From Candidatus Omnitrophota bacterium (lineage in GTDB: Bacteria; Omnitrophota; Gorgyraeia; 2-01-FULL-45-10): a DNA stretch of 64,000 nucleotides. Below are positions 3,424 to 31,014 of this stretch, in pieces (position 1 is the stretch's first letter; every line of letters begins with the position of its first letter). Position numbers and translations under genes: made by a program. The stretch covers positions 24,670 to 88,669 of the forward strand of contig JAQVUX010000007.1 in NCBI GenBank assembly GCA_028699255.1, read 5' to 3'. The notes beneath the pieces are model-generated. The model saw only the letters and a list, made by a program, of their open reading frames with translations. It was not told the origin of the DNA and made no database searches.

Positions 3424-4811
3424 ACTGCCTCCTTACCGAATTTGCGCCCCGGGGTGCAAATCCCAAGCGCCTTCATTATTCCCGCGGCCTTATCGATCGT
3501 CTCGGCATATTCCGCTTCCGGATCCGAATCCGCAACTATTCCTCCACCCACAGAAAAATATACCCGCTTACCTTTTGCGATAAGAGTTCTTATCACAACC
3601 GACGTATCCATATTCCCGTCGAACGATATATAACCTACAGCGCCTGTATATACAGAGCGTTTCACGCCCTCGAGTTCCTCGATTATCTCCATCGCCCTCA
3701 CCTTCGGCGCGCCGGTTATTGAACCTCCCGGGAAAGAGGCCATAAGACAGTCGATGGGGGTAGCATCCTTCTTAAGCCTTCCTGAAACGGTGGAGACCAT
3801 GTGGATCACGTTGGAAAACTTCTCTATCGCCGCCGGACGGTTAAGTTTCACCGTACCGTAATCGCATATTCTGCCGAGGTCGTTACGCTCAAGATCCACT
3901 ATCATTATGTGTTCGGCGTTGTCTTTTGCGCTCAAAGAAAGCTCGCGCGAAAGCGCCTCGTCGCCGTCTTTTGTAACGCCACGCGGGCGCGTGCCTTTAA
4001 TGGGGCGCGTCTCGATATATCTGCCTTTTTTGAACAAAAATCTCTCCGGCGAAGAACTTAGTATAGCAACATCGCCAAATCCCAGGTACGCGGCAAATGG
4101 CGCCGGCGAAATAGTCCTAAGCCGCGAATACAGGCGCGAGGGCTTAATATCGATATCCGCTTCGAACCTCTGCGAAAGGTTGACCTGGTATATATCGCCT
4201 TTTTTTATGTACTTCTTTGCCTTCTTTATAACCTTAAAATAGCCGGGCTTCGAAAAATTCGATCTCAGTCGCGCCGCCGGCACATCCGAAAGATTATCTC
4301 GACGAGAGATACCGGTCGAGAGGATATTTTTAAATTCCGCCAAACGATTGCCGCCGGCTATATAAGTTTTATGCTTCAGATTATCATACACTATCGCGGT
4401 GTCATAGAAACCCATTATACAATCCGGTACCCCCAGGTCATCAACAGCGCTATCGCGAAGGTTTTCGACAAAACCTTTCATGTCGTACGAGAAATAACCG
4501 ACGCCGCCTGAGGTGAACGGCAGAGCGCGCGGGAGGGCCTTACGCCCGTATTGTTTGAATATATCTTTTAAAACAGCGAAGGGATTTGCCGTGAATGTTT
4601 CATTTTTGCCGCCGGGACGCTCGAGAGTTATGGCCGCGCCTTTACTTTTAAATACAAGGAACGGGTCACACCCGAGGAATGAAAATCTGCCTTGCTTAGC
4701 GTCGGTGAGCGCGCTGTCTAAGAAAAAAACATATGGACGATCCTCAAGCAGATGGAATATTTCTATCGGGGAGATTTTCTTCCGTATCTTTTCGATGGCC
4801 GGATTAGCCAT
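3411..4811 (-). CDS. pabB: aminodeoxychorismate synthase component I (chorismate-binding enzyme, PabB/TrpE family)
   Basis: 466 aa; chorismate-utilising domain; adjacent PabC-like gene. Confidence 0.75.
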   Translation of the reverse strand: MANPAIEKIRKKISPIEIFHLLEDRPYVFFLDSALTDAKQGRFSFLGCDPFLVFKSKGAAITLERPGGKNETFTANPFAVLKDIFKQYGRKALPRALPFTSGGVGYFSYDMKGFVENLRDSAVDDLGVPDCIMGFYDTAIVYDNLKHKTYIAGGNRLAEFKNILSTGISRRDNLSDVPAARLRSNFSKPGYFKVIKKAKKYIKKGDIYQVNLSQRFEADIDIKPSRLYSRLRTISPAPFAAYLGFGDVAILSSSPERFLFKKGRYIETRPIKGTRPRGVTKDGDEALSRELSLSAKDNAEHIMIVDLERNDLGRICDYGTVKLNRPAAIEKFSNVIHMVSTVSGRLKKDATPIDCLMASFPGGSITGAPKVRAMEIIEELEGVKRSVYTGAVGYISFDGNMDTSVVIRTLIAKGKRVYFSVGGGIVADSDPEAEYAETIDKAAGIMKALGICTPGRKFGKEAVWQL

Positions 4812-5304
4812 TAAGCGCTTCCGAAAAAGCGTCCGCGAGAAGGTTTAGCGAGCTTAAAACCTCTTCACTCAGAGGAGACCCCAGGGCGGCCGACTTTGGC
4901 TGGATGGAAACCACGAATATATTAAGATCCTCTTTACCCGTCCTCAATAAATCGGTAAAAAGCCTCGGGGAAGGATTGTGAGTCGAAAAACTGACGTTCA
5001 CTATCTCGTCGAGAGAAAATACGTTTACACTGCCCGGGATCATTCCCATGTCGGCGGCATCTATTAATATTACCGTATCGCACAATGTGGTGAGTATCGG
5101 AAAAATATAATTTTCCGGGGCGGTACCACAATCGAATAAGTGAGCATTGATAGCGCGCGTTTTCAAAATTTCTATCAACCTGGGGCCCAGGCCGTCGTCG
5201 CCACGGATGATATTGCCTATGCCCACTATCGACGCTTTCCCTGAAATCTTAGATTTAATGGATTGGGAAAGTTCGGATCCGGACAGTCCGTTAGAACTTT
5301 TCAA
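4804..5304 (-). CDS. hycI: [NiFe] hydrogenase maturation endopeptidase (HycI/HybD family)
   Basis: 166 aa; 'VGIGNIIRGDDGLG' metal-binding motif typical of hydrogenase C-terminal processing proteases; last gene of the hydrogenase operon. Confidence 0.75.
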   Translation of the reverse strand: MKSSNGLSGSELSQSIKSKISGKASIVGIGNIIRGDDGLGPRLIEILKTRAINAHLFDCGTAPENYIFPILTTLCDTVILIDAADMGMIPGSVNVFSLDEIVNVSFSTHNPSPRLFTDLLRTGKEDLNIFVVSIQPKSAALGSPLSEEVLSSLNLLADAFSEALNG

Positions 5305-5911
5305 GAGTGGCTTTCCTTCTGCATTTGGCGCACAATATCTTCACGCGATCGCTTCGTACAACATAGTCGCGCGCCGTTTGAATAACGCTTTCACCAAAGC
5401 CCATACCTTTTAACGATTCCAAAAACAGTGTCGGATTAGAGAATGCCAAAGGACCTAATTTGCCGGCCACCCACCGAAGATGCGCGCGCGTCGTTATTAC
5501 CTCGCCGCACTCCTCGCAAAGCGCCAGCTCTTTCTCATCCGTCGCCGAGATCATCGACGCCCTGTCGAATCCGGCCAGATCGAAATCGGTAGTATGCCGG
5601 ATACCGGGCGGATTATCGGCTTTTGTAGTACACAGCGCGCTACACTGCCCGCAATAATGGCACTCGTCCAGATGCAGTATCATCCTGCGCGTCGCCTTAT
5701 CCTTTGTAATCACATCCTTGAACTCTATCGCTCTCATAGGGCACACTAGCGCGCACGCGGTACAGCCGATACACCCTTCGTCGGAATACTGTGGCCTGCC
5801 GCGGAAACGCTTCGCCGGCACATGCGGCGCATAAGGAAATTTCGACGTATACGGCCCGGCTATCAGAGCCGTTATAGCTTCTTTAAGTTCTCGTAATTTC
5901 GGTAATCTCAT
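5291..5911 (-). CDS. TYKY/NuoI-like 2x[4Fe-4S] ferredoxin subunit of the membrane-bound hydrogenase (MbhN/HycF-like)
   Basis: Two CxxCxxCxxxCP motifs ('CIGCTACALVCP' and 'CHYCGQCSALC'); within the hydrogenase operon. Confidence 0.65.
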   Translation of the reverse strand: MRLPKLRELKEAITALIAGPYTSKFPYAPHVPAKRFRGRPQYSDEGCIGCTACALVCPMRAIEFKDVITKDKATRRMILHLDECHYCGQCSALCTTKADNPPGIRHTTDFDLAGFDRASMISATDEKELALCEECGEVITTRAHLRWVAGKLGPLAFSNPTLFLESLKGMGFGESVIQTARDYVVRSDRVKILCAKCRRKATLEKF

Positions 5912-6006
5912 ATGCTAAGCTTTACCATGTTGGAAGAATGCCTCAATAACCGTTCCAAGTTTGATCCTATCTATATTCATATTCATCGCGCCCTCCTCCG
6001 CCATAG

Positions 6007-6336
6007 CTACTCTCCGATAGTACCGGTATATTGATCAACGACCGTCTCTTTACATGGCTTGACGTCCGAACGGTAAGCGCCTCTTGCCAGGGCATGCGCC
6101 GAAACCGGAGCGGTCAAAAGAATGAACACCATACATAGGAGCGCCTTAATACCTGTAGCGGTAAATCCCCTGCATATAAAAAGGCCGAGTAATATTCCGC
6201 ACGTCCCAAGGGTCACGCATTTAACGGATGCCTGTAGCCGCGTATAAACGTCCGGGAACCTGACGAGCCCCAGACAACCGAAGAAGTCTAAGATAAGCCC
6301 GATAACGACTAGTGCCATCCCTATATTCTCATTCAT
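6007..6336 (-). CDS. mrpG: Mrp antiporter-module subunit G (MnhG-like)
   Basis: About 110 aa, 3 TM helices. Start placed at the internal Met ('MNENIGM') to avoid overlapping mrpF. Confidence 0.55.
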   Translation of the reverse strand: MNENIGMALVVIGLILDFFGCLGLVRFPDVYTRLQASVKCVTLGTCGILLGLFICRGFTATGIKALLCMVFILLTAPVSAHALARGAYRSDVKPCKETVVDQYTGTIGE

Positions 6337-6688
6337 CGAAATCTTTCCCCTCCAGATATTTCGCAAGCGCCATTATGCCTATAAAACTTTGTAATGCCCA
6401 TGCAAGAGCTATATCTATATACCAGTCCCTTCCCGTCGGTAAACTTAATATAGCGCAAAGCCCGACGATAAGTATCCCAAGCATATCTACGGCAACAGCC
6501 CTGTCAGGCGCAGTAGGCCCTCTCAATATTCTGAAAAGGCAGAGCAGGACGGATATGAGAAGCCAGAGGAACGCCCTGGCAAGAAAATTGGACTGCCACA
6601 TGATCATGGACGAAACCGGCGCGAATAATACCGCCACCGCAATGACCGTTATCAATATAAGCCCGAGCGCCCAGTTAAGATTTTTCAT
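6329..6688 (-). CDS. mrpF: Mrp antiporter-module subunit F (MnhF-like)
   Basis: 119 aa membrane protein with 'RILRGPT..DR..A.D' MnhF-like motif. Confidence 0.55.
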   Translation of the reverse strand: MKNLNWALGLILITVIAVAVLFAPVSSMIMWQSNFLARAFLWLLISVLLCLFRILRGPTAPDRAVAVDMLGILIVGLCAILSLPTGRDWYIDIALAWALQSFIGIMALAKYLEGKDFDE

Positions 6689-6690
6689 AA

Positions 6691-7221
6691 TTATTCGAAT
6701 ATCCTCTTTAAAATACGCCCGTATTTATCCACAACCGGTAGCTTTATATCAGTCGAGGCCTGTGACTCTTTTAAGAACAGCATATGTATGTAAATATAAC
6801 CTCTTTCTTTATCTATATCTACGGTCGTAGCGCCGGGCGTGAATGTTATGGAATTAGCAAGGAACGTAAGCCCTATATCCGATTTAAGATCCGTTTTAAC
6901 TCTTATGGTGGCCGGCCTTATCGGTAATACCGGACAGGCAACCCTCCAGACTACATCTGTAGTTGCCTTCAGGCACTCCCATAAAAAAACCATTGCGTAG
7001 CAAACAAGCCAGAATATTCTTTTGGGCATATTCATCACGCCCGGCTTTTCAGCCGCAGAGGTCTTGGTGGTGCCGTCGGCCAGCTTGAATATATCCACCG
7101 TCATAAGCGTAACGAACAAAGAGATGATAATACCAAGGACGCACTGTTTGACATCGGCCGGCCATGTTAGCGCCAACCAGACGACGAACCATAGGATAAA
7201 TAACGCGGCCTTTTTTATCAT
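6691..7221 (-). CDS. mrpE: Mrp antiporter-module subunit E (MnhE-like)
   Basis: 176 aa; 'FTPGATTVDID' MnhE signature. Confidence 0.6.
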   Translation of the reverse strand: MIKKAALFILWFVVWLALTWPADVKQCVLGIIISLFVTLMTVDIFKLADGTTKTSAAEKPGVMNMPKRIFWLVCYAMVFLWECLKATTDVVWRVACPVLPIRPATIRVKTDLKSDIGLTFLANSITFTPGATTVDIDKERGYIYIHMLFLKESQASTDIKLPVVDKYGRILKRIFE

Positions 7222-8711
7222 CTTACGACCCCGGGGTTGACACAGAAGGAACCTTTTACAAGAACGGCGGCCGCGTTGTTCAGCAGTGCGTTGCCCGCGT
7301 TCGGCATAAGTAAAAATCCTCCGGATATAACGATGACGGCCAGGATCGCGACCGCGACGGCCATGGCCATACTCCTCTTAGCCCCTCCACGGGTAGCGGT
7401 CTCATCGGGCCGCCTGCCGAAGAGTACCGGCGTAAGCGCCCTGAAGTAGTACGCAAGCGTAAGAATGCTTACGGCAACCGCTATGAAGGCGAGCACTGGC
7501 CTATTCGCCTGGATACACGCGAAAATTATTATTAGCTTGCTCCAGAACCCGCCGAGCGGCGGCACGCCGCATATCGAAAGAGCGCCTGCCATCATAGAAT
7601 ATCCGTTGACGGGATTTTTCGCGATTATTCCGGACATACGCTTAAGGTCGTTGGTCTGCTCGGAGTTTTCGGCGATCCCGGAATTTAAAAATAGCGCCGA
7701 CTTGGCCACACTGTGATTAAAAAGATGAAGGAGCGCCCCTACGATGCCGAGCGGCGTTCCTATTCCGAGCCCTAGAAAGATATAGCCAACCTGGCTTATG
7801 CTCGAATATCCGAATAGCCGCCTTATATTCGTTTGTCCGAAAGCGAGTAAAGCCCCCACCAGCATCGAGAGAACGGCCAATGTTATAATGATTGAAGAAA
7901 CCGCGGATGTCATTCCAAAAATATTAAAAAATATCCTGGCAATCACATATATGCCAAGCGTCTTTATGAGTATCCCGGAAGAGGCCGCGGGAATAGTGGC
8001 CGGGGATGAACTGTACGTATCCGGTAGCCACGCGTGAAAAGGCACAGCCGCGGCTTTGAGCCCGAAGCCCATTATGAATAACATACCAACAAAATATAAA
8101 AGTTTTGTACCGCCCGACGCCGCTATTACGCGGGCCATGTCGTTCATATTGAGTGTGGATGTCGCGCCATAAAGAAGCGCTATCCCGAGCAGGACGAAGC
8201 TGGACGCCACAGCGCTCATCACGGCATATTTGAACGACGCCTCAAGGGATGTCGGTTCGGTGCCAAATGCCACCAGCGCGTACACCGCGATAGACGCTAT
8301 CTCCAGAAATACGTAGAGGTTGAATAAATCCGTCGTTATCAGGAGCCCGTTGACACCCGCCATCATTACCATAAGGAGCGTATAATATTTCCACTTATCG
8401 GTATAGCTCTTTATGTACCCTACGGAATATACCGCTATTAAAAATCCGACTAAGTTGACTGTAACCAGCATGAATGCCGATAGCGCGTCGGCGCAGAGCT
8501 GAATGCCGAACGGGGGCATCCAGTTTCCCACATTATAGGATGGCGCCCTGCCCTGCAGGACGAGAGCGGCTACGGCAAGCGAAACCGCCATCATAAAAAA
8601 TGTAGCCGCGCAGGCAATAACGTCCGCGGCCGCCTTCATGCGTTTCGCGAAAAGAGGCGTCAAAAACGCCGCGGTAAGCGGTATCGCTATCAAATATGGT
8701 AGTATCGCCAT
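7218..8711 (-). CDS. mrpD: Mrp subunit D / NuoM-N-like proton-pumping antiporter subunit
   Basis: 497 aa, 14-TM NuoL/M/N family ('WLPDTY' motif). Confidence 0.75.
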   Translation of the reverse strand: MAILPYLIAIPLTAAFLTPLFAKRMKAAADVIACAATFFMMAVSLAVAALVLQGRAPSYNVGNWMPPFGIQLCADALSAFMLVTVNLVGFLIAVYSVGYIKSYTDKWKYYTLLMVMMAGVNGLLITTDLFNLYVFLEIASIAVYALVAFGTEPTSLEASFKYAVMSAVASSFVLLGIALLYGATSTLNMNDMARVIAASGGTKLLYFVGMLFIMGFGLKAAAVPFHAWLPDTYSSSPATIPAASSGILIKTLGIYVIARIFFNIFGMTSAVSSIIITLAVLSMLVGALLAFGQTNIRRLFGYSSISQVGYIFLGLGIGTPLGIVGALLHLFNHSVAKSALFLNSGIAENSEQTNDLKRMSGIIAKNPVNGYSMMAGALSICGVPPLGGFWSKLIIIFACIQANRPVLAFIAVAVSILTLAYYFRALTPVLFGRRPDETATRGGAKRSMAMAVAVAILAVIVISGGFLLMPNAGNALLNNAAAVLVKGSFCVNPGVVR

Positions 8712-8716
8712 CGAGG

Positions 8717-9055
8717 CTATCCCTTAAGTTTGTTTATTCGCGTTATATCGAATGTTCCGTACTTCTCGTAAAGCCGTATCGCGATCGATATCAATAGAAG
8801 TGTTATCGAAAGCCCCAGGACAATCACGGTCAGCACCACCACCTGCGGCAGAGGATCCACCATCTTTGTGATAGCCTGATCGTGAGCGTATATAGGAGAA
8901 CGGCCGTCTTTTACATATCCTATGAGTATGAAGAAAAGATTTACCGCGTATCCCATAATGCATATGCCGATGATTATCTTTATGATATTCCGTTTCCTTA
9001 GGACACAATATAGCCCTATCGAGAAGAGCACCAGGCATAACATATATACCGTCAT
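8717..9055 (-). CDS. mrpC: Mrp subunit C (NuoK-like)
   Basis: 112 aa, 3 TM, NuoK-like. Confidence 0.65.
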   Translation of the reverse strand: MTVYMLCLVLFSIGLYCVLRKRNIIKIIIGICIMGYAVNLFFILIGYVKDGRSPIYAHDQAITKMVDPLPQVVVLTVIVLGLSITLLLISIAIRLYEKYGTFDITRINKLKG

Positions 9056-9067
9056 AAAAGTTTCTTT

Positions 9068-9493
9068 CTATTCCGAGTCTTTGTCCGCTTTTGACAAAAG
9101 TACCAGGGCTAAGAATATGGCAAACAACCCCGCGCCTACTATTATCATTTCACAAAATGGAATTATCGTGTAATTACTGAATATCCTGAAAGGCATATCG
9201 CCGGAAAATCCGTATATTACCGTGTAAAGGAACACGAGCGCGCCGGCGCCTATCGCTATCCGGAGCAGGTTCGCGCGCAGTCTTTTAAGCGCGACCTCTT
9301 TGCCGAATGCCAGCATTATATTTACGAATGAGAGCGCGACTATCACGCCCCCGGCAAATCCGCCACCCGGGGATTCATGCCCGGACATGGTAATATATAC
9401 GCCGTACAGCAGGATAAACCCGAGCGTAAGACGCGTTACCGTCTTGACTATAAGGGTCATACCCTTTTCATGTTTTACGGCCTTAGTATCCAT
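9068..9493 (-). CDS. mrpB: Mrp subunit B (MnhB-like)
   Basis: 141 aa, 4 TM. Confidence 0.55.
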   Translation of the reverse strand: MDTKAVKHEKGMTLIVKTVTRLTLGFILLYGVYITMSGHESPGGGFAGGVIVALSFVNIMLAFGKEVALKRLRANLLRIAIGAGALVFLYTVIYGFSGDMPFRIFSNYTIIPFCEMIIVGAGLFAIFLALVLLSKADKDSE

Positions 9494-9496
9494 CGA

Positions 9497-10015: not shown

Positions 10016-11824
10016 CTATTGCCTCAAAAATATCACGAAGAATATTCCGACCATTCCCAGAAGGCACCATACCATGTATGTAGGTAATATGCCGTTATGC
10101 ATTCGCGCGAGTTTTCCGGTAAAATAGTAAATGATCTTTCGGGCGGTGTTATATATGTCAAGCGAGCCTTCCTCTTCTTTCCTGTACAATTTCCCGAGGC
10201 GAGGCAATTGCCTTATCGTATCGTAAAACTCAGCGCCGGTTACTCTGTCTAATTTCGCGACGTCTTCCCCGCCTACAAACGTATCCACCGTCCGGAATCG
10301 CGCGGGACGCATGATCATATATGCCAGAGCACCCAGGCCCAGCGCGACCAGTATAAGCGCTGTTACGGCCATCGGATCCCACATCCCGCAGTATGTTATG
10401 GCTTTGCCCAACGACGGCGCTATAAATAACGTTATCGGCACGGCGGTGGCAAATATCCCGAATACGATACACGCGGCGGCTAATATGCCCATCGGCACTG
10501 TCATGGAAAGCGCCGCCTCTTTTATACCTTTAAAACCTTCTGCGCTCCGGCCTAAGAATACCGCATGGAGAAGTTTCATGAAACTTGCTACCGTCAGGGC
10601 ACTGCCAAACATCGCCGCTACGAGCCAGACCATCCAGAGCGAATTTTTTGCGGAGGCCGATTCTATTATCCCCTGATATATCATCCATTTTGAAACGAAA
10701 CCGTTAAAAGGCGGAACACCGGATATGGAAAGCGACGCTACAAGACAGGCGACGAATGTGGCAGGCATGTATTTGAATAATCCGCCCAGCTTTGTCATAT
10801 CTGTGGTGTGCATCCGCTTCTCGACGGCGCCTGCCGTAAGGAAGAGGCACGATTTATATATCGCGTTATTGAGCATGTGAAAAAGACCGCCGGCTATGCC
10901 TATAACGCTTCCGGTACCTATACCGAGTACCATATATCCGACCTGCGAGACGGCGTGATACCCCAGGAGCCGCTTCATGTCATGCTGGACGAGCGCGATT
11001 ATAACGGCCACAACTATGGTAACTGAGCCGGCAAGCGAGAGGACAAAATTCGTCGCCGGGTTCATCTCGAAAATATACAAAGAAGCGCGCGCCAGAAGAT
11101 ATATGCCGAGTAATTTGTCGAGACAGGCGGGCAGGTATGCCGCAACATTGGTCGGCGCGAATTCGGCTGTATCCGGTAGCCACGAATGAAAAGGCATCGC
11201 CCCGGCTTTCGCAAAAGCCGCGATCGCAAGCGAAATATAGGCTATATACGCCGCCGGTGATGATAACTGTATATGAACACCGTCTATCACGGAAGACTTG
11301 GATATCTGCCATATAAGGCAGAGGCCGAATATCATGAGAGCGTCTGTCCCGCCTATTATTATAAGCGCTTTCTTTGCCGCCGCGGACGCGTTTTCAGTGC
11401 CTCTGAGGTTTATCATCAGATATAGGAGTGCGGCGAGAAATCCCCAGAAGACTAAGAATGCCGTCATGTCATTCGCGAACGCGACGCCGAGAGAGGAGCC
11501 GAGCGTCATGAGAATATAACCGAAATGCCGCCCCGACGAGCTTTCGACGAATCCAAAAGAATATATCGTTATCAATAGGGCGAATGCGGATACGGCCAGC
11601 GCGATAAATCCCGACAGATTGTCGACAAAGAACAATGGATACGACCCGATGTTATAACTTAGAGGTTTTTTAATGAAAACTGTGAGCGCTCCGGCGAATA
11701 CGGCGAGCGAAACCAACCCGGCTATCGCCTTGGCAAAAACCCTGGCGCGCTCCGGGATGAAGAGGCTGACCGCACCGGCTATTATGGGTGCGGCTATCAG
11801 CAATAAAAGCAGGTTCTGATGCAT
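10016..11824 (-). CDS. mrpA: MrpA/NuoL-like antiporter subunit (MbhH-like)
   Basis: 602 aa; NuoL family; 'HSWLPDT' motif. Confidence 0.75.
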   Translation of the reverse strand: MHQNLLLLLIAAPIIAGAVSLFIPERARVFAKAIAGLVSLAVFAGALTVFIKKPLSYNIGSYPLFFVDNLSGFIALAVSAFALLITIYSFGFVESSSGRHFGYILMTLGSSLGVAFANDMTAFLVFWGFLAALLYLMINLRGTENASAAAKKALIIIGGTDALMIFGLCLIWQISKSSVIDGVHIQLSSPAAYIAYISLAIAAFAKAGAMPFHSWLPDTAEFAPTNVAAYLPACLDKLLGIYLLARASLYIFEMNPATNFVLSLAGSVTIVVAVIIALVQHDMKRLLGYHAVSQVGYMVLGIGTGSVIGIAGGLFHMLNNAIYKSCLFLTAGAVEKRMHTTDMTKLGGLFKYMPATFVACLVASLSISGVPPFNGFVSKWMIYQGIIESASAKNSLWMVWLVAAMFGSALTVASFMKLLHAVFLGRSAEGFKGIKEAALSMTVPMGILAAACIVFGIFATAVPITLFIAPSLGKAITYCGMWDPMAVTALILVALGLGALAYMIMRPARFRTVDTFVGGEDVAKLDRVTGAEFYDTIRQLPRLGKLYRKEEEGSLDIYNTARKIIYYFTGKLARMHNGILPTYMVWCLLGMVGIFFVIFLRQ

Positions 11825-11827
11825 CGG

Positions 11828-13018
11828 CTATCCCCTTACTCCCATCTTCTCTTTAAGCAACCGCGTCTTTTCCTGGGATAATTTTATAAGCTCTTGTACG
11901 CCGAATAGTTCTTTGTCGCGCCAGTCTGTGATAAGCATGCGCTCTGTACAACAATAGCACGGATCGATTGCCGCCAGTATTATCGTCGCGTCCGAGACGG
12001 TCTCGCCTATTACCGTCTCCCGGAACGTCGGAAAATTCATGTAGGTCGGCGCCCTCACCTTGTGCCTGACGGGCGAATTGGTGCCGTCCGATTTTACGTA
12101 ATGGAAACATTCGCCTCTGGGCGCCTCTGCCTGGCCTATACCTTCCCCCGGCGGAATATCCTTCGGATTGGAATCTATCGGCCCGCCCGGCAATTTATCC
12201 AAACATTGCCTTATTATCGATACCGACTCGTACATCTCCAGTATCCTCACGACGACCTTCGCGAATACGTCGCCTTCGGGACGTGTGATGACATTCCATT
12301 TCAGCCGGTCGTAAGCCGCGTACGGATGATCGCGCCTGACGTCTACATCGTAACCTGACGCTCTTGCCGTAGGCCCTAACGCCGCGTAATCTATCGCCTT
12401 GCCCTTCGTAAGTATGCCCACGCCTTTAAGCCGCGCGTGCAATACAGGATCGTCGAGAATAGCGCCGCGCAGCATATCGAGATGTTTTAAAAATTCGTCA
12501 AGGCGCGTCAATATGTACGGTATGTGCTCTTTTTCTATATCACGCCGTACACCGCCGACTTTCATCATGGCATAGTTTTGTCTATTGCCCGTAACCGTTT
12601 CCATTATGTCGCAAATCGGCTCTCTGTACTTCCAGCCCCACATAAATATGGTGTTGTAACCCAAGAAATGTCCCGCCAGGCCCGCCCATAGCATGTGCGA
12701 ATGAAGCCGCTCGAGTTCCTGTATGATGGTTCGTATATACAGAGCCCTGTCCGGTACACTTATGCCGGCCAAATCCTCAACGGCCTGAACACATGTTATA
12801 GGATGCGATGAAGAGCATATCCCGCATATCCGCTCGACGATGAATATCGACTGGTCGAAACTCTTCGCCTCGGACAGTTTCTCTATGCCGCGGTGGTTCC
12901 AGCCGATACGGACATCCACATCCACAACCTTCTCCCCTTCGACCACAAGTTTGTAAAACTCCGGCTCTTCCTGCAGAGGATGATACGGCCCGATCGGTAT
13001 ATGCGCTTTATGGCTCAT
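11828..13018 (-). CDS. group 4 [NiFe] hydrogenase large subunit (NuoD-like, MbhL/EchE type)
   Basis: N-terminal 'RICGICSSSH' and C-terminal 'DPCYCCTER' Ni-Fe ligand motifs. Start taken at 'MSHKAHIPIGPYHP', abutting the NuoC-like gene. Confidence 0.85.
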   Translation of the reverse strand: MSHKAHIPIGPYHPLQEEPEFYKLVVEGEKVVDVDVRIGWNHRGIEKLSEAKSFDQSIFIVERICGICSSSHPITCVQAVEDLAGISVPDRALYIRTIIQELERLHSHMLWAGLAGHFLGYNTIFMWGWKYREPICDIMETVTGNRQNYAMMKVGGVRRDIEKEHIPYILTRLDEFLKHLDMLRGAILDDPVLHARLKGVGILTKGKAIDYAALGPTARASGYDVDVRRDHPYAAYDRLKWNVITRPEGDVFAKVVVRILEMYESVSIIRQCLDKLPGGPIDSNPKDIPPGEGIGQAEAPRGECFHYVKSDGTNSPVRHKVRAPTYMNFPTFRETVIGETVSDATIILAAIDPCYCCTERMLITDWRDKELFGVQELIKLSQEKTRLLKEKMGVRG

Positions 13019-13485
13019 TATGCTTTCCTCGAATCTCTCTTCGGCACTACGAAATTTTTTCTTAAAGGATATACGCCCGACGGCCAATCGTCCGACAGAA
13101 GAAGCGGACGCAAATCATTGTTGCCGTTAAAATGAACGCCGAATAATTCGTGAATCTCCCTTTCTATCCACCAGGCGGACTTCGTTACCGTCGTAATGGT
13201 ATCGATATGCGGATCATTCTTATCCTTCATTATCGCTCTCAGCGATACGATGTATCCCGAAACGTCATCGGCGAAATGATAGAGTATCTCTATCGATTTA
13301 AAATCGTCCACGGCCGTGGCTATATTGAATCTGAGGCCCAGATCCTTGAATATATATTTCGTGAATTCGACAACATCGGCAGGCTCGATGTCAATATAAC
13401 AGCGCTTCCCGTTCTTTTTGTCGATCTTGCGAACTTTTGCGCCGAATTGGTCCTGTATTTTTTTTATTGCGTCGTCTATCTTCAT
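13018..13485 (-). CDS. NuoC-like hydrogenase subunit (MbhK type)
   Basis: 155 aa; 'WIEREIHELFGV' NuoC/30-kDa subunit motif. Confidence 0.75.
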   Translation of the reverse strand: MKIDDAIKKIQDQFGAKVRKIDKKNGKRCYIDIEPADVVEFTKYIFKDLGLRFNIATAVDDFKSIEILYHFADDVSGYIVSLRAIMKDKNDPHIDTITTVTKSAWWIEREIHELFGVHFNGNNDLRPLLLSDDWPSGVYPLRKNFVVPKRDSRKA

Positions 13486-13486
13486 A

Positions 13487-13918
13487 TCATTTCTTCTTTA
13501 CAGCGTTAACCTTATCCAATAATTTCTTTACCCCCGCTATAACCGCTTCAGGTTTCGGCGGACAACCCGGTATATACAGATCGACGGGAATTATCTCGTC
13601 CAGCGGGGAACCCGTATTGTAGCTATCTTTAAAGACACCCCGCGAAGAGCCGCACGCGCCCCACGCTATCACGAACCCGGGCTTCGGCATCATCTCGTAC
13701 AACTTCTTTATCCTGGGAACGCACAGCCGGTTCGTCGAGCCGGTGCAAAGTAAAGCGTCGGCGTGTTTGACACTACCGACTAAAACTATACCGAATCTCT
13801 CGAGGTCATACCGCGGCGTCAGGCAATCGAGTATTTCTATGTCGCAATTATTACAGCTTCCGCTCGAGAGATGAAATACATATAACGATTTGGTTAATAT
13901 TTTTTCTTTTAGTCCCAT
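13487..13918 (-). CDS. NuoB-like [NiFe] hydrogenase small subunit (MbhJ type)
   Basis: 143 aa; four Cys ('GSC', 'NNCD', 'GACGSS', 'PGCPP') for the proximal [4Fe-4S] cluster. Confidence 0.85.
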   Translation of the reverse strand: MGLKEKILTKSLYVFHLSSGSCNNCDIEILDCLTPRYDLERFGIVLVGSVKHADALLCTGSTNRLCVPRIKKLYEMMPKPGFVIAWGACGSSRGVFKDSYNTGSPLDEIIPVDLYIPGCPPKPEAVIAGVKKLLDKVNAVKKK

Positions 13919-13919
13919 G

Positions 13920-14858
13920 TCAGTATCCGAAATATGCCAGTACCGCCGAAATTATCGCCAGCGCCGTAACCGGCCCCCAGAAAAAACGCACCGCCTGATC
14001 TATCCTGACCCTGGGGTTCGTATTCTTTATCACTACGATGGCCGCCAGTATCGCGAGATAGCCTGCGACATTCTTTATAAAAGTTTCGACATCGAATCCG
14101 ATCCCGCCGAAATACAGGATTATCATAAGAACCGGCAGGACAAAAAGCAGTATCGCCTTCGAGAGTTTGAATACGCCGAGCGCCTTGCCCGAATACTCTA
14201 TGTACGAGCCGGCCATGATCTCGGTCTCCGCTTCAGGCATATCGAACGGAGCAAACCCCAGCTTAGCCTGGACGCACAGAAGCATTACGATAAACGATAT
14301 GACGCCGGAGGCGCCCGCTATGATGTGCCCATGCAACGACTGATACGTTATTATATCACCGACCTTTATAGCGTAGCCACACTTTATTACCGGCACCAGG
14401 ACGGAAATTATGAACGGCAGTTCGTAGGCGAGCATGAGTTTCATCTCTCTGGAAGCGCCGAGCGAAGCCAATGGGTTCTCCGACGCGAATGCCCCCAGCA
14501 TCAATGCGATAGCCGGTATCATCAGAAGATATATGACGACTATGAGGTCGCCCAAAAAACCTGCCTGTGGAAAACGGCTTATCACAAGTAATATAGTCGA
14601 GACGATGGTCGCGGAGGCAAGCGACAATAACGGCATCCCGAGAAAGATCGGTTTGGATACATTCACCGGGATAAGCGTCTCTTTATAAAAAAGCAATTTT
14701 ATCACGTCCACAAAGTTCTGATACCACGGCGGCCCCACCCTCCATTGAACCCTGGCGGTAAGTTTCCTGTCCACCCACCCGGCTAAAAGACCGATGGTGG
14801 ATGAGAATATGAAACCGGGAAATACCAAAAACATGAATAGGTATTCGAATATCTTCAT
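13920..14858 (-). CDS. NuoH-like membrane anchor subunit (MbhM type)
   Basis: About 312 aa, 8 TM, NuoH family. Start moved to 'MKIFEYLF' so it abuts the upstream ferredoxin gene. Confidence 0.7.
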   Translation of the reverse strand: MKIFEYLFMFLVFPGFIFSSTIGLLAGWVDRKLTARVQWRVGPPWYQNFVDVIKLLFYKETLIPVNVSKPIFLGMPLLSLASATIVSTILLVISRFPQAGFLGDLIVVIYLLMIPAIALMLGAFASENPLASLGASREMKLMLAYELPFIISVLVPVIKCGYAIKVGDIITYQSLHGHIIAGASGVISFIVMLLCVQAKLGFAPFDMPEAETEIMAGSYIEYSGKALGVFKLSKAILLFVLPVLMIILYFGGIGFDVETFIKNVAGYLAILAAIVVIKNTNPRVRIDQAVRFFWGPVTALAIISAVLAYFGY

Positions 14859-15376
14859 ACGCCCGGCGAGATGCGCTTTTTTACAGGCAAACCGTCGCCG
14901 CTTCCTTCCCATTTTTGTTTCGTCCGTACAAAAAGATGTTCCGATATTTTAAACATACCGTCTTCTTTTTTCTCCTCGAACTCGCCAAAACGTACACCGC
15001 CGCGGCCGCAAAGCTCCAAGCAGACAGGCGACTCACCTTCTTTGAGACGTCCTATGCAATAGTCGCATCTCGAAACTATAAAAGGTATTGTTTCCGGGTA
15101 TATCACGCCGAACGGACACGCCCTCGAGCACGATTTGCACGAGGTACAGCGCATCGTATAGCGCTTGAGCATGTTCGTCCTCTGGAACTCGAGCGCCTCC
15201 CACGGGCACGACGCCACACAGGGCGAATCCTCGCACCGCCTGCAGACGAGCGCGAAGTGCGCGAACTCTATCAGGCTCATCACGCCGTTGTTCGACGGAT
15301 GCTGTATGTAACTGCAGATAGCGCCGCATTCTCCGCAGGCGGAACATGTATCGAGATCTATCAATAATTGTTTCAT
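14855..15376 (-). CDS. HycB/HydN-like multi-[4Fe-4S] ferredoxin subunit
   Basis: 173 aa with 4 Cys clusters (CxxCxxCxxxC series). Confidence 0.7.
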   Translation of the reverse strand: MKQLLIDLDTCSACGECGAICSYIQHPSNNGVMSLIEFAHFALVCRRCEDSPCVASCPWEALEFQRTNMLKRYTMRCTSCKSCSRACPFGVIYPETIPFIVSRCDYCIGRLKEGESPVCLELCGRGGVRFGEFEEKKEDGMFKISEHLFVRTKQKWEGSGDGLPVKKRISPGV

Positions 15377-15377
15377 G

Positions 15378-16196
15378 CTAATCCCAGATATTCGGCAGAT
15401 CTTTTATCTTGTCGTATGTAAATACTGGGCCGTCCTTACACGCGTAATATGGCCCTATCCTGCAATGGCCGCACTTACCTATACCGCAGGACATATTCTT
15501 CTCCATCGATAAATAAACCGTGTTCTCTTTAAAGCCCAGGTCGAGCAGTTTAAAAGTAACGAACTTCATCATTATCGGAGGCCCGCAGACTATGGCGACG
15601 GCGTTATTCACATCTACCAACCCGGGTTTTAACACCGTCGTAACCAATCCTACGTTGCCCTTCCATGTATCGTCGCCCACATCGACGCTTATTTCGATAT
15701 CCACATGGCCGGCTTTGGCGCGCCACGAATCTATCTCGTTCTTATATACGATATCCTTCGATGTCTTCGCCCCGTATTTCAATACTATCTTCTTGTAGTC
15801 GTTAACTTCGTTAAAGAGCGCGTAAAGCAGTGCACGGAGCGGCGCCAGCCCCACGCCGCCGCCGACGATAAAAACCTCTTTACCCTTAAACTCATTCAGC
15901 GGATAACCAAGCCCGTACGGCCCCCTGACGCCCACTATATCGCCGGCCTTCGCCTGATGAATGAGGCTTGTTACGCGGCCTGCGCGCATGATGGTAAAAT
16001 CCAGCACGTCTTTGACATAGTGATTGGATGACGGCGTGAACGGCGCCTCTCCAATCCCGGGAAGCGACACGTCCATGAATTGCCCCGCGCGGAAACCTAT
16101 TCCCGTCTTGGGCCTGAGCGTAAACGTCTTTATATTCTGCGTCTCATCGACGACCTTCAATATCTCGGCTTCTGTATATGCGTATGGATTATTCAT
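15378..16196 (-). CDS. AsrB/HydG-like FAD/NAD(P)-binding oxidoreductase subunit with C-terminal [2Fe-2S]
   Basis: 272 aa. Ferredoxin-NADP reductase-like fold ('GGGVGLAP'). C-terminal 'CGIGKCGHCRIGPYYAC' cluster, as in sulfhydrogenase gamma / anaerobic sulfite reductase B / PyrK. Confidence 0.7.
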   Translation of the reverse strand: MNNPYAYTEAEILKVVDETQNIKTFTLRPKTGIGFRAGQFMDVSLPGIGEAPFTPSSNHYVKDVLDFTIMRAGRVTSLIHQAKAGDIVGVRGPYGLGYPLNEFKGKEVFIVGGGVGLAPLRALLYALFNEVNDYKKIVLKYGAKTSKDIVYKNEIDSWRAKAGHVDIEISVDVGDDTWKGNVGLVTTVLKPGLVDVNNAVAIVCGPPIMMKFVTFKLLDLGFKENTVYLSMEKNMSCGIGKCGHCRIGPYYACKDGPVFTYDKIKDLPNIWD

Positions 16197-17238
16197 GCGG
16201 CGGCTTATTCCATTTACCGGTTACCAGTCCTTTTAAAACCTCCCGCAGATCTATGTCGCCGGGGCAGGCCTCGATGCAACGGCCGCATCCCGTGCAGGCG
16301 AAATAATTCAGGATTTGCGGAAAGAAATCGAATTTCTTTTCGAACCTGTTGCGCAGGCGCTCATAAAGGCGCTTCCTCGGGTTCGCGCCTCCGGCAACTC
16401 TGGCAAACGTGTTATACATGCACGCGTCCCACATCCTGAAACGCTTGTTGCCGCCGGCGGTCTTCTCGTCGTATAAAAGGAAGCAGTGGCACGTCGGGCA
16501 TACGAGGTTGCACGCTCCGCATTCGACGCAGGTGGAAGCGAAATCCTTCCATAGCTCCGTAAGGTTATAGCTCTTCTTCACGGCGCCTCTTATCGCGGAG
16601 GTATCCGGTGTTCCTCTTTTATCGATAAAATACCGGACTTCTCTCGAAACTTTCTCGCGGTTGGCCTGCCGGACATTCAAGTCCGTCGCGGAATGATTTT
16701 TGAAGAACATCTTGAAATTATTTATTATATTTTCGCCTTTTTCGCTCGCGACCTCGACGATGAATGAATCGCCGGCTGGCGACAGATTGATATCGAAATT
16801 TTTCTGCGGATAAGGCGCGCCTTCCATGGCAAGGCAAAAACATGTCTCTTTAGCGTAAGTGCAGTCACAGCCTATTATTATGGTATTATTCCTGTTCTCG
16901 GCGTAGAAAGGATCCTCGACCTCGCCTTTCAGAAATACAAAATCCTGCAGTATAAAACTTGCGAGATCGCAGGCTTTTACGCCGGCGAGAATGACAGGAC
17001 GTTTATCTTTACGGGAAGTGTCTAGTATCTTCTCTCTCGGAGGATTTATGAAACCTTTGACGGGCCGGCTCTGTCTTATACCGCCCAGCTCTATTCTGTC
17101 TTCTTTTTTGGGATCGAATTCGCCGAAGTCAAGCCTCTGCCCGTCGGCATAAGGCAGGAAAACCCTATAATTTGCGGATAGCCTTGCAAAGAGATCGTAT
17201 AGATCTTTTTTGGTGATTTTGTATGTCTTCTTTTCCAT
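16189..17238 (-). CDS. AsrA/HydB-like iron-sulfur subunit (sulfhydrogenase beta-like)
   Basis: 349 aa; 'CVECGACNLVCPTCHC' and 'CTGCGRCIEACP' [4Fe-4S] motifs. First gene of the hydrogenase operon and overlaps the next gene by 8 nt. Confidence 0.65.
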   Translation of the reverse strand: MEKKTYKITKKDLYDLFARLSANYRVFLPYADGQRLDFGEFDPKKEDRIELGGIRQSRPVKGFINPPREKILDTSRKDKRPVILAGVKACDLASFILQDFVFLKGEVEDPFYAENRNNTIIIGCDCTYAKETCFCLAMEGAPYPQKNFDINLSPAGDSFIVEVASEKGENIINNFKMFFKNHSATDLNVRQANREKVSREVRYFIDKRGTPDTSAIRGAVKKSYNLTELWKDFASTCVECGACNLVCPTCHCFLLYDEKTAGGNKRFRMWDACMYNTFARVAGGANPRKRLYERLRNRFEKKFDFFPQILNYFACTGCGRCIEACPGDIDLREVLKGLVTGKWNKPPHE

Positions 17239-17262
17239 AGTGACTCATATAGTCAAGTTCCT

Positions 17263-17291
17263 ATTTTAAAACGGTGGGCGGGTTAAGTCAA
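17263..17291 (-). promoter_or_regulatory. candidate sigma70 promoter of the hydrogenase operon
   Basis: Minus strand TTGACT-17nt-TAAAAT about 20 nt upstream of the AsrA-like start. Confidence 0.4.
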
Positions 17292-18980: not shown

Positions 18981-18991
18981 AATGCCTTTCT

Positions 18992-20205: not shown

Positions 20206-20214
20206 ATTACCATT

Positions 20215-31007: not shown

Positions 31008-31014
31008 AACTTTT

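What the first reader, a model, noticed from the sequence alone, without database searches (positions are those of the whole stretch)
4804..17291. 17-gene operon fusing AsrAB-like NAD(P)H/FAD module, group-4 [NiFe] hydrogenase core and a complete MrpABCDEFG module
All 17 genes are on one strand, with overlaps or gaps of 12 nt or less between them, apart from a single 95-nt spacer. A promoter-like TTGACT-17-TAAAAT sits upstream of the first gene. The order is:
- AsrA/HydB-like and AsrB/HydG-like (FAD, 2Fe-2S, 4Fe-4S)
- HycB-like polyferredoxin
- NuoH-, NuoB-, NuoC- and NuoD-like subunits, the last with intact Ni-Fe Cys ligands
- MrpA, an MrpA-C-terminal-domain-like protein, MrpB, C, D, E, F, G
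- TYKY-type ferredoxin
- HycI protease

Characterised Mbh, Mbx, Mbs, Ech and FHL complexes use a different gene order and lack a sulfhydrogenase beta/gamma-type module. This layout implies an ion-translocating hydrogenase wired directly to NAD(P)H, so H2 evolution or uptake would be coupled to the pyridine-nucleotide pool and to Na+/H+ transport. It is potentially an undescribed group-4 subtype. The operon also runs without a break into pabB and the PabC-like gene (8-nt hycI/pabB overlap), which is an odd pairing.
Basis: partly seen in the sequence, partly recalled or inferred. Interest (0 to 1): 0.75.

Follow-up and report, generated by a model that had tools for sequence, protein, structure and literature searches.

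The report
Hun membrane hydrogenase operon, Omnitrophota
This is a real, intact 16-gene "Hun" operon plus its maturation protease, encoding a membrane-bound nickel-iron hydrogenase joined to a sodium/proton antiporter module; the operon type has already been described from metagenomes, including this phylum, but its electron donor has never been tested.

Summary

The novelty claim does not hold. Gene for gene, this is the 16-subunit hunA-P operon named by Glass et al. 2021 (bioRxiv 10.1101/536078), followed by hycI. That paper lists Omnitrophica among the carriers. Carnevali 2019, Méheust 2020 and Williams 2021 describe the same type under other names. The large subunit carries the Hun signature CGIC...CYCC.

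In 116 related loci from 15 or more phylum-level groups, the order A-O, then P and hycI, is kept wherever the contig reaches. Four loci have the Mrp genes displaced or not adjacent.

The NAD(P)H idea remains plausible and differs from the published ferredoxin model. HunA and HunB are closest to Pyrococcus sulfhydrogenase I beta and gamma. The FAD, NAD(P) and 2Fe-2S motifs of HunB are nearly invariant in 83 orthologues. No biochemistry exists.

Additional findings:
- The promoter-like site is conserved in relatives.
- The 95-nt spacer is the relic of a PhoU-like gene.
- The pabB/pabC linkage is conserved only in one Omnitrophota subclade.

The parts
17263..17291 (-). Sigma-70-like promoter TTGACT-17-TAAAAT upstream of hunA
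   Evidence: 10 of 12 matches. The element is conserved as TTGACTT-17-TAAAAT in 7 relatives with different upstream genes.
16189..17238 (-). hunA: AsrA / sulfhydrogenase-beta-like Fe-S subunit (349 aa)
   Evidence: Pfam Fer4_22 1.2e-29. Best PDB match is SHI beta, 9nez_B, 3.5e-35. It falls below all NCBIfam equivalog cut-offs. Twelve Cys are invariant in A2, the 10-sequence alignment of the window protein and 9 of its best hits.
15378..16196 (-). hunB: AsrB / sulfhydrogenase-gamma-like FAD, NAD(P), [2Fe-2S] subunit (272 aa)
   Evidence: Pfam FAD_binding_6, NAD_binding_1 and DHODB_Fe-S_bind. Best PDB match is SHI gamma, 9nez_C, 5.2e-55. The motifs EAPFTPSS, GGGxGxAPxR, CGPPxMMK and the 2Fe-2S Cys are invariant in about 80 of 83 orthologues.
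14855..15376 (-). hunC: four-cluster polyferredoxin (HycB/CooF/DmsB type, 173 aa)
   Evidence: Pfam Fer4_11. Four Cys motifs are visible in the translation. PDB hits include HycB, 7z0s_B.
13920..14858 (-). hunD: NuoH/MbhM-like membrane subunit
   Evidence: Pfam NADHdh 6.9e-58. The ATG at 14858 gives an ATGA overlap with the hunC stop codon.
13487..13918 (-). hunE: NuoB-like hydrogenase small subunit
   Evidence: Pfam Oxidored_q6 8e-28. Cluster Cys motifs are present.
13018..13485 (-). hunF: NuoC-like subunit
   Evidence: Pfam Complex1_30kDa 1.7e-24.
11828..13018 (-). hunG: [NiFe] large subunit with L1 RICGIC, L2 DPCYCCTER and a 36-aa C-terminal extension
   Evidence: Best PDB matches are MbhL 6cfw_L (5.4e-90) and HycE 7z0s_E (7.4e-85). 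The CYCC signature is present in 58 of 62 orthologues.
10016..11824 (-). hunH: MrpA/NuoL-like antiporter-type subunit (602 aa)
   Evidence: Pfam Proton_antipo_M. PDB matches are MbhH 6cfw_H (1e-47) and MrpA 7qru_A (7e-44).
9497..10015 (-). hunI: MbhD+MbhE fusion, equivalent to the MrpA C-terminal domain
   Evidence: Pfam MbhD and MbhE. It matches residues 654-812 of MrpA, 6z16_A.
9068..9493 (-). hunJ: MrpB-like
   Evidence: Pfam MnhB 5.9e-19.
8717..9055 (-). hunK: MrpC/NuoK-like
   Evidence: Pfam Oxidored_q2 9e-27.
7218..8711 (-). hunL: MrpD-like antiporter-type subunit (497 aa)
   Evidence: Pfam Proton_antipo_M 3e-64. The best NCBIfam hits are antiporter subunit D families.
6691..7221 (-). 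hunM: MrpE-like
   Evidence: Pfam MNHE 1.4e-34.
6329..6688 (-). hunN: MrpF-like
   Evidence: Pfam MrpF_PhaF.
6007..6336 (-). hunO: MrpG-like
   Evidence: Pfam PhaG_MnhG_YufB 3.4e-24.
5912..6006 (-). 95-nt spacer: degenerate, frameshifted 3' end of a lost PhoU-domain gene
   Evidence: The spacer reads AMNMNIDRIKLG, then a frameshift, then LLRHSSNMVKLSI*. The PhoU C-terminus of L081 reads ANMYFDMLDFTGNLARHSSSIVKLF*. An intact PhoU-like gene sits at this junction in 16 of 21 close-clade loci.
5291..5911 (-). hunP: NuoI/HycF-like 2x[4Fe-4S] subunit with a C-terminal CxxC...CxxC
   Evidence: Pfam Fer4_7. Best PDB match is HycF, 7z0s_F, 8e-13. Best NCBIfam hit is the FHL iron-sulfur subunit.
4804..5304 (-). 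hycI-type large-subunit maturation endopeptidase
   Evidence: Pfam HycI. TIGR00072 scores 101 bits against a cut-off of 47. It follows hunP in all 40 comparison loci that reach that point.
2569..4811 (-). pabB (3411-4811) and a class IV aminotransferase / PabC-like gene (2569-3423): co-oriented neighbours, not part of Hun
   Evidence: pabB passes the TIGR00553 cut-off, 354.7 against 328.4. The linkage is kept in the close Omnitrophota clade and in L142 and L144. It is absent in L106, L122, L152-L163 and the short variants.

Best explanation
This is an Omnitrophota copy of the Hun operon (hunA-P) with hycI.

**Proposed assembly (inferred from homology)**
- A peripheral arm built like formate hydrogenlyase: HunC (HycB-like), HunP (HycF-like), HunE (small subunit), HunG ([NiFe] large subunit), HunF.
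- An anchor, HunD (NuoH-like).
- An Mrp/Mbh-type membrane arm with two antiporter-like subunits (HunH, HunL) plus HunI, J, K, M, N, O.
- In place of the formate dehydrogenase of FHL, the input module is HunAB, a homologue of the beta/gamma (diaphorase) pair of cytoplasmic sulfhydrogenase.

**Proposed mechanism (inferred, not shown)**
- NAD(P)H binds HunB.
- Electrons pass FAD, then [2Fe-2S] in HunB, then the HunA clusters, the four HunC clusters, the two HunP clusters, the HunE cluster, and finally the Ni-Fe site.
- This redox reaction is coupled to H+/Na+ movement through the Mrp-like arm.
- NAD(P)H (about -320 mV) is a weaker reductant than H2/H+ (-414 mV at 1 bar). The complex would therefore evolve H2 at the expense of the ion gradient, or with little gain at very low H2. 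At high H2 it would run backwards, as an ion-pumping H2:NAD(P)+ oxidoreductase.
- HycI trims the 36-residue tail of HunG after Ni insertion.

**Shown versus inferred**
- Shown here: gene content, order, ligand motifs, homologies, conservation and promoter conservation.
- Inferred: complex formation, donor identity, direction and ion specificity.
For: - The identity with Hun is one-to-one: 16 genes in the published order and the published HunG signature CGIC...CYCC.
- In 80 genome loci anchored on HunA, the order A-B-C-D-E-F-G-H-I-J-K-L-M-N-O holds wherever the contig reaches. Their labels include Omnitrophota, Planctomycetia, Nitrospirota, Elusimicrobia, Atribacterota, Clostridia, Spirochaetota, Desulfosarcina variabilis and others.
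- In 36 metagenome loci anchored on HunP, O-(PhoU)-P-hycI holds in every case.
- The L1 motif R[IV]CGIC is present in 62 of 62 HunG orthologues and L2 DPCYCCTER in 58 of 62.
- For the NAD(P)H input: HunB matches SHI gamma at 5e-55 and HunA matches SHI beta at 3.5e-35.
- All named NCBIfam relatives of HunB are NAD(P)-linked flavoproteins.
- The FAD motif, GGGxGxAPxR, a basic residue at position 144, CGPPxMMK and the 2Fe-2S cysteines are conserved in about 80 of 83 orthologues across phyla.
- HunB is better conserved than HunA (52-87% against 35-82% identity).
- The FHL-like wire is supported by HunP's best match to HycF and HunC's membership of the HycB/CooF class.
- A conserved promoter precedes hunA.
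Against: - There is no biochemical, structural or expression evidence for any Hun complex (searches found no follow-up work).
- The only published model proposes reduced ferredoxin as the donor through HunABC.
- NAD(P)H-driven H2 evolution is endergonic under standard conditions. An energy-conserving role therefore needs low H2 or the reverse direction.
- NADH versus NADPH cannot be decided from sequence.
- In four loci (L017, L033, L043, L075) hunP-hycI follow hunG directly. In L033 and L043, hunH-K homologues lie divergently upstream. L017 shows only a hunH-like hit upstream, and L075 shows no Mrp homologues in the sequence held. The coupling to Mrp is therefore modular, not obligatory.
- HydDB classification and a large-subunit phylogeny could not be run here.
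Confidence: 0.6

Rival explanations
1. Ferredoxin-driven Mbh-like respiratory hydrogenase (the model of Glass et al. 2021). Reduced ferredoxin from fermentation donates to exposed clusters of HunA, HunC or HunP. Protons are reduced to H2 and the Mrp arm exports Na+/H+ for ATP synthesis. HunB would be an accessory or regulatory flavoprotein, or a side entry.
For: - This is the published interpretation, and it matches the generic HydDB description of group 4g.
- The best solved relative of HunG is ferredoxin-dependent MbhL.
- The reaction is exergonic and fits an ion-pumping arm with two antiporter-like subunits.
- In relatives, a NIL-domain 2x[4Fe-4S] ferredoxin gene sits directly upstream of hunA.
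Against: - It does not explain why an FNR-type NAD(P)-binding domain with all its motifs is kept nearly invariant in 83 orthologues across phyla.
- It does not explain why the closest characterised relatives of HunAB are the NAD(P)H-oxidising beta/gamma pair of sulfhydrogenase.
- Mbh needs no such module: ferredoxin docks at the NuoI-like subunit.
Confidence: 0.25
2. HunAB-HunC feed or draw electrons for a different terminal reaction, such as reduction of sulfur, polysulfide or sulfite, or a molybdopterin-dependent substrate. The Ni-Fe site would be secondary, as in the Mbs and Mbx relatives or the sulfur reductase activity of sulfhydrogenase.
For: - HunA and HunB score nearly as well to AsrA and AsrB as to the sulfhydrogenase subunits. 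AsrB scores 232.6 bits against a cut-off of 288.6.
- In some lineages a molybdopterin protein is inserted between hunB and hunC.
Against: - No AsrC/siroheme or molybdopterin gene is in or next to this operon.
- All four Ni-Fe cysteines are conserved, whereas Mbs and Mbx lack them.
- A dedicated HycI protease is conserved at the 3' end, and hypCDE and the hypF C-terminal half lie nearby. Both point to a working hydrogenase.
Confidence: 0.07
3. Two machines share one transcript: a small Ech-like hydrogenase (HunA-G plus HunP) and an independent Mrp Na+/H+ antiporter (HunH-O), with no physical coupling.
For: In the variant loci L017, L033, L043 and L075, hunP-hycI follow hunG directly. In L033 and L043, hunH-K homologues are divergently transcribed upstream. 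L017 shows only a hunH-like hit upstream, and L075 shows none.
Against: - In the great majority of loci hunP, an essential peripheral-arm subunit, lies downstream of the whole Mrp block, and junctions are overlapping.
- In the solved Mbh and Mbs structures the homologous Mrp-type subunits are integral to the complex.
Confidence: 0.08

Closest known systems
Hun supercomplex operon (hunA-P), Glass et al. 2021, bioRxiv 10.1101/536078 / Environ Microbiol
   Same: The same 16 genes in the same order. HunAB are AsrAB-like with no AsrC. HunG carries the CGIC...CYCC motifs. The membrane module is Mrp-type. Omnitrophica are explicitly listed as carriers.
   Different: This copy has lost the PhoU-like gene seen in many Omnitrophota copies, which the paper does not mention. 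It carries hycI and pabB/pabC downstream. The paper proposes ferredoxin as donor, whereas the motif conservation found here favours NAD(P)H.
'Mbh-Mrp-oxidoreductase type' group 4 hydrogenase of Saganbacteria and Elusimicrobia (Carnevali 2019 PMC6349859; Méheust 2020 10.1101/765248)
   Same: The region combines asrA, asrB, cooF-like, hydrogenase and Mrp-like genes. The nearest relatives were noted in Zixibacteria and Omnitrophica.
   Different: Those loci also carry an unclassified molybdopterin oxidoreductase, which is absent here.
Pyrococcus furiosus Mbh (group 4d, PDB 6CFW)
   Same: It has the best solved match to HunG (5.4e-90) and to HunH (1e-47), and MbhD/E equivalents are present. It is a group 4 [NiFe] hydrogenase with an Mrp-derived membrane arm.
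   Different: The mbhA-N gene order differs. Mbh has one antiporter-like subunit against two here. It has no beta/gamma-like or HycB-like subunits, and its donor is ferredoxin, docking at MbhN (established knowledge).
E. coli formate hydrogenlyase (group 4a, PDB 7Z0S)
   Same: HunG matches HycE at 7.4e-85. HunP's best match is HycF, including the C-terminal CxxC...CxxC. HunC is HycB-class. The large subunit has a HycI-processed C-terminal tail.
   Different: There is no FdhF: the input module is SHI beta/gamma-like. The membrane arm is a full Mrp set rather than HycC/HycD.
Pyrococcus furiosus sulfhydrogenase I (group 3b, PDB 9NEZ)
   Same: Its beta and gamma subunits are the closest solved relatives of HunA and HunB. 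Its gamma subunit is the NADPH/FAD/[2Fe-2S] diaphorase.
   Different: It is cytoplasmic, with a group 3 alpha/delta catalytic pair. HunG scores only 32-42 bits to the HydA and ShyA models.
Anaerobic sulfite reductase AsrABC
   Same: HunA and HunB hit the AsrA and AsrB models at 1.9e-38 and 4e-69.
   Different: Both score below the equivalog cut-offs, and there is no AsrC.

Membership tests
Hun complex (Glass et al. 2021) | 16 genes in the order AsrA-like, AsrB-like, ferredoxin, NuoH, NuoB, NuoC, NuoD, then eight Mrp-type genes, then a NuoI-like gene | tested here: met
   Searches match the description read one-to-one.
Hun complex (Glass et al. 2021) | HunG metal-site motifs L1 CGIC and L2 CYCC | tested here: met
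   RICGIC and DPCYCCTER are in the translation. The same motifs occur in 60 and 58 of 62 orthologues respectively.
Hun complex (Glass et al. 2021) | AsrAB-like pair without AsrC | tested here: met
   No siroheme or NIR_SIR-type protein is among the operon or neighbouring genes.
Hun complex (Glass et al. 2021) | Orthology with the operon in Atribacteria and other deep-biosphere phyla | tested here: met
   The Atribacterota locus L026, the Elusimicrobia locus L021 and the Clostridia locus L024 have the same order, with 61-68% HunG identity. Kosmotoga was not among the 80 loci kept.
Hun complex (Glass et al. 2021) | HydDB assigns HunG to group 4g, in a clade distinct from other 4g enzymes | not testable with these tools
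Only PDB bit scores were obtained.
Mbh (group 4d) | mbhA-N architecture with a single antiporter-like subunit and no extra soluble input module | tested here: not met
   There are two Proton_antipo_M subunits plus HunABC, and the order differs.
Formate hydrogenlyase (group 4a) | FdhF formate dehydrogenase as the electron input | tested here: not met
   No molybdopterin protein is present in the operon or its immediate neighbours, nor among the other window ORFs scanned.
Sulfhydrogenase (group 3b) | Group 3 alpha/delta catalytic subunits together with beta/gamma | tested here: not met
   HunG scores 32-42 bits against cut-offs of 700-880 for ShyA and HydA. HunA and HunB are also below the ShyB, HydB, HydG and ShyC cut-offs.
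Anaerobic sulfite reductase AsrABC | AsrA and AsrB equivalog scores and presence of AsrC | tested here: not met
   AsrA scores 132.5 against a cut-off of 323. AsrB scores 232.6 against 288.6. There is no AsrC.
Mrp antiporter module | Equivalents of MrpA, B, C, D, E, F and G | tested here: met
   All seven families were found. MrpA is split into HunH and HunI.
NAD(P)H-dependent flavoprotein (FNR/PyrK superfamily), for HunB | Flavin motif, GxGxxP nucleotide motif, CGPP motif and 2Fe-2S cysteines | tested here: met
   The motifs are present in the window protein and conserved in about 80 of 83 orthologues. Actual binding and NADH/NADPH preference were not testable.

The most novel reading that the evidence does not exclude
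Hun may be a reversible, ion-coupled NAD(P)H:H+ oxidoreductase. That would make it a membrane hydrogenase that uses or builds a Na+/H+ gradient to connect the pyridine-nucleotide pool directly to H2. No characterised group 4 enzyme has this coupling, and the published Hun model, which assumes ferredoxin, does not propose it. If so, many uncultured anaerobes in 15 or more phylum-level groups could re-oxidise NAD(P)H to H2 without a bifurcating hydrogenase.
Probability: 0.45. Interest if true: 0.65.

Novelty: already known. Interest (0 to 1): 0.3.

Why it matters
This window adds no new kind of system. It is one more copy of a predicted complex that several metagenomic papers have already noted.

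What remains open, and worth an experiment, is the enzyme's chemistry. Hun-type operons are widespread: 725 HunA clusters at 50% identity score E<=1e-30, and loci were found in 15 or more phylum-level groups, including the cultured Desulfosarcina variabilis. They keep an intact NAD(P)-binding flavoprotein at the electron-input end.

If NAD(P)H is the partner, Hun would be a new coupling site between the pyridine-nucleotide pool, H2 and the ion gradient in sediment and subsurface anaerobes. That would change the energy budgets inferred from MAGs that currently label it 'ferredoxin-coupled group 4g'.

Tried and rejected
A 10-sequence alignment worked.
- Literature searches for follow-up work on 'Hun' and Kosmotoga membrane hydrogenases found nothing beyond the papers cited. 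So did the search for other asrA/asrB-linked group 4 enzymes and for the paper behind the SHI structure 9NEZ.
- NCBIfam has no model that any of HunA, HunB, HunG or HunP passes, so no curated name applies.
- HunC is a generic four-cluster ferredoxin. Its PDB hits do not single out HycB.
- The idea that pabB/pabC are functionally part of the system was rejected. The linkage is absent in distant Hun operons, including loci with 1-9 kb of sequence after hycI.
- The promoter scan alone is not significant: 38 sites against 25.8 +/- 5.7 expected. Only the cross-genome conservation gives it weight.
- The tblastn hit of PhoU to the spacer is weak on its own (E 6.6 over the whole window). It is accepted because of its exact position, strand and extended DNA-level similarity.
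- Structure prediction was not run. Single-chain models would not resolve donor identity, and no multimer tool was available.

Full report
**Observation.** The window holds 17 consecutive minus-strand ORFs from 17238 down to 4804.
- an AsrA/HydB-like Fer4_22 protein
- an AsrB/HydG-like protein with FAD_binding_6, NAD_binding_1 and the DHODB 2Fe-2S domain
- a Fer4_11 polyferredoxin
- NuoH-, NuoB-, NuoC- and NuoD-like subunits
- a 602-aa antiporter-like subunit
- an MbhD+MbhE fusion that matches the C-terminal domain of MrpA in solved Mrp structures
- MrpB, C, D, E, F and G equivalents
- a NuoI/HycF-like 2x[4Fe-4S] protein
- HycI

The large subunit has both metal-binding motifs (RICGIC, DPCYCCTER) and a 36-residue tail after the second motif, the substrate for a HycI-type protease. 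With the internal ATG starts, all junctions are overlaps or gaps of 12 nt or less, apart from one 95-nt spacer (5912-6006). hycI overlaps pabB by 8 nt.

**Promoter.** TTGACT-17-TAAAAT lies at 17291-17263. The scan alone is weak, with 38 sites found against 25.8 expected. An alignment of the region upstream of hunA tells more. In seven relatives the same TTGACTT-17-TAAAAT is kept about 25 nt before the start codon, while the surrounding sequence and the upstream gene differ. The upstream gene is a NIL-ferredoxin in some relatives, a small unannotated gene at the end of a divergent pilin-like (N_methyl/Lcl_C) cluster in one, and a glycosyltransferase in the window. hunA therefore most likely starts a transcription unit.

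**Identity.**
- The large subunit has hundreds of homologues at 81-94% identity, and those with names come from Candidatus Omnitrophota MAGs.
- Glass et al. 2021 (bioRxiv 10.1101/536078) described a 16-subunit operon, hunA-P. HunAB are AsrAB-like, HunC is a ferredoxin, HunD is NuoH-like, HunEFG form the hydrogenase core, HunH-O are the Mrp-type subunits and HunP completes the hydrogenase module.
- The HunG signature is CGIC...CYCC. The operon was found in Atribacteria, Firmicutes, Omnitrophica, Elusimicrobia, Bacteroidetes and Kosmotoga.
- The window operon matches this gene for gene and carries the signature.
- Carnevali et al. 2019 saw asrA, asrB, cooF, hydrogenase and Mrp-like genes together in Saganbacteria and noted Omnitrophica relatives.
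- Méheust et al. 2020 called it the 'Mbh-Mrp-oxidoreductase type'.
- Williams et al. 2021 and 2022 reported 'Group 4g, Mrp-linked' hydrogenases in Omnitrophota and Auribacterota.

**Independent test of conservation, anchored on HunA.** HunA has 725 clusters at 50% identity with E<=1e-30. A scan of one genome per species with a HunA alignment returned 80 loci. Their labels include Omnitrophota, Planctomycetia, Nitrospirota, Elusimicrobia, Atribacterota, Clostridia, Sumerlaeota, Spirochaetota, Hydrogenedentota, Fermentibacteria, Brocadiaceae, Aerophobetes, Auribacterota, Latescibacterota and the isolate Desulfosarcina variabilis Montpellier.

tblastn with the window proteins shows the order A-B-C-D-E-F-G-H-I-J-K-L-M-N-O in every locus, as far as the contig or flank reaches. 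Four loci are exceptions (L017, L033, L043, L075). There hunP and hycI follow hunG directly. In L033 and L043 hunH-K homologues lie divergently upstream, L017 has only a hunH-like hit upstream, and L075 shows none.

**Independent test of conservation, anchored on HunP.** A second scan of metagenome contigs gave 36 loci long enough to read. All show O-(PhoU)-P-hycI. The L1 motif is present in 62 of 62 HunG orthologues and DPCYCCTER in 58 of 62.

**How it likely works.** Comparison with solved structures shows a chimera.
- HunG is closest to P. furiosus MbhL (5.4e-90) and E. coli HycE (7.4e-85).
- HunP is closest to HycF, including its C-terminal CxxC...CxxC.
- HunC belongs to the four-cluster HycB/CooF/DmsB class.
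- HunH and HunI match MbhH, MrpA and MbhD/E.
- HunA and HunB are closest to the beta and gamma subunits of P. furiosus sulfhydrogenase I (9NEZ; 3.5e-35 and 5.2e-55).

No NCBIfam equivalog cut-off is reached by HunA, HunB, HunG or HunP, so these are distinct families.

In 83 HunB orthologues several features are essentially invariant: the flavin motif EAPFTPSS, the nucleotide motif GGGxGxAPxR, a basic residue at position 144 after the second strand, CGPPxMMK and the 2Fe-2S cysteines. HunB is also better conserved than HunA. Such conservation is hard to reconcile with a purely ferredoxin-fed wire.

I therefore favour NAD(P)H as the partner. Electrons would run from HunB through HunA, HunC, HunP and HunE to the Ni-Fe site, coupled to ion movement in the Mrp-like arm. 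From the standard potentials (-320 mV against -414 mV), H2 evolution from NAD(P)H would need either the ion gradient or very low H2. The reverse reaction could pump ions. All of this is inference, since no assay or structure of any Hun complex exists in the literature I could search. The published ferredoxin model remains the main rival.

**The spacer.** In 16 of 21 close-clade loci a roughly 200-aa PhoU-domain gene lies between hunO and hunP. In six more distant genomes it lies between hunG and hunH. The window's 95-nt spacer aligns with the last 30 or so codons of that gene, with a frameshift, and ends in a stop codon that overlaps the hunP start. The single large gap in the operon is thus a deletion scar, not a regulatory spacer.

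**pabB and pabC.** pabB passes the aminodeoxychorismate synthase model cut-off. The class IV aminotransferase is ambiguous between PabC and branched-chain aminotransferase. The pair follows hycI in the close Omnitrophota clade and in two intermediate loci. It is missing in L106, L122, the distant clade L152-L163 and the short variants, although sequence continues after hycI there. It is lineage-specific synteny.

**Verdict.** It is an instance of a previously described, biochemically uncharacterised operon type. The only point with some novelty value is the donor question, which the sequence evidence tilts toward NAD(P)H.

Noticed in passing
window 5912-6006 (minus strand): The only sizeable intergenic gap in the operon is a frameshifted relic of the 3' end of a PhoU-domain gene. 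That gene is intact between hunO and hunP in most close relatives, and between hunG and hunH in six other genomes. A PhoU-like protein therefore looks like a recurrent, unreported accessory of Hun operons.
   Followed up: yes
window 17288-28800: An 11.5-kb block separates hunA from the NIL-domain ferredoxin, the PRK04334/AbpE-like gene and the hyp genes (28851-33418). In relatives L081, L083 and L086 those genes sit directly upstream of hunA. The block holds two GT2 glycosyltransferases, a split transketolase, a methyltransferase, an epimerase, two unknown 480- and 563-aa proteins, and type II secretion F and E genes. GC drops to 0.40-0.45 across 18-26 kb, which suggests an insertion.
   Followed up: partly
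window 28851-30012; L081 4315-5458; L083 4537-5676; L086 4502-5660: A conserved pair lies between hypE and hunA in relatives: a 135-aa NIL-domain 2x[4Fe-4S] ferredoxin and a roughly 240-aa protein (NCBIfam PRK04334.1-3 'hypothetical protein', 290 bits against a cut-off of 271; Pfam AbpE_bact in the precomputed hits). These could be further Hun-associated factors in Omnitrophota, such as a ferredoxin partner.
   Followed up: no
window 32294-33418: The HypF homologue is only the C-terminal Kae1-like half (374 aa, HypF_C + HypF_C_2). The acylphosphatase, zinc-finger and YrdC domains are missing. The same short form occurs in relatives L081, L083 and L086. No N-terminal half was found among the window ORFs scanned with Pfam, which were most of those of 130 aa or more.
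   Followed up: no
window 2569-4811; L081, L083-L085, L088-L144: pabB and a class IV aminotransferase follow hycI, with overlapping or near-overlapping junctions, across a whole Omnitrophota subclade. In the window and its closest relatives a pseudouridine synthase, greA and hexokinase come next. No pabA-like gene is adjacent.
   Followed up: partly
L017, L033, L043, L075: Short Hun variants occur in an uncultured bacterium, two Spirochaetota and an Auribacterota. The order is hunA-G followed directly by hunP and hycI. In L033 and L043 hunH-K homologues are divergently transcribed upstream. L017 has only a hunH-like hit upstream, and L075 shows no Mrp homologues in the sequence held. The hydrogenase core with HunABC is therefore a separable module.
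   Followed up: partly
L005 upstream of hunA; L029, L032, L057, L070: Some genomes carry a second, distant set 6-9 kb upstream of the Hun operon. In L005 this is NuoH-, NuoI- and HycI-like genes; in L029 both AsrA- and AsrB-like genes; in L032, L057 and L070 an AsrB-like gene alone. These probably belong to additional hydrogenases.
   Followed up: no
window 59423-61515: A C-5 cytosine DNA methylase (60391-61515) sits next to an unannotated 323-aa ORF (59423-60394), in a stretch of lower GC (0.44). This is possibly a restriction-modification pair.
   Followed up: no
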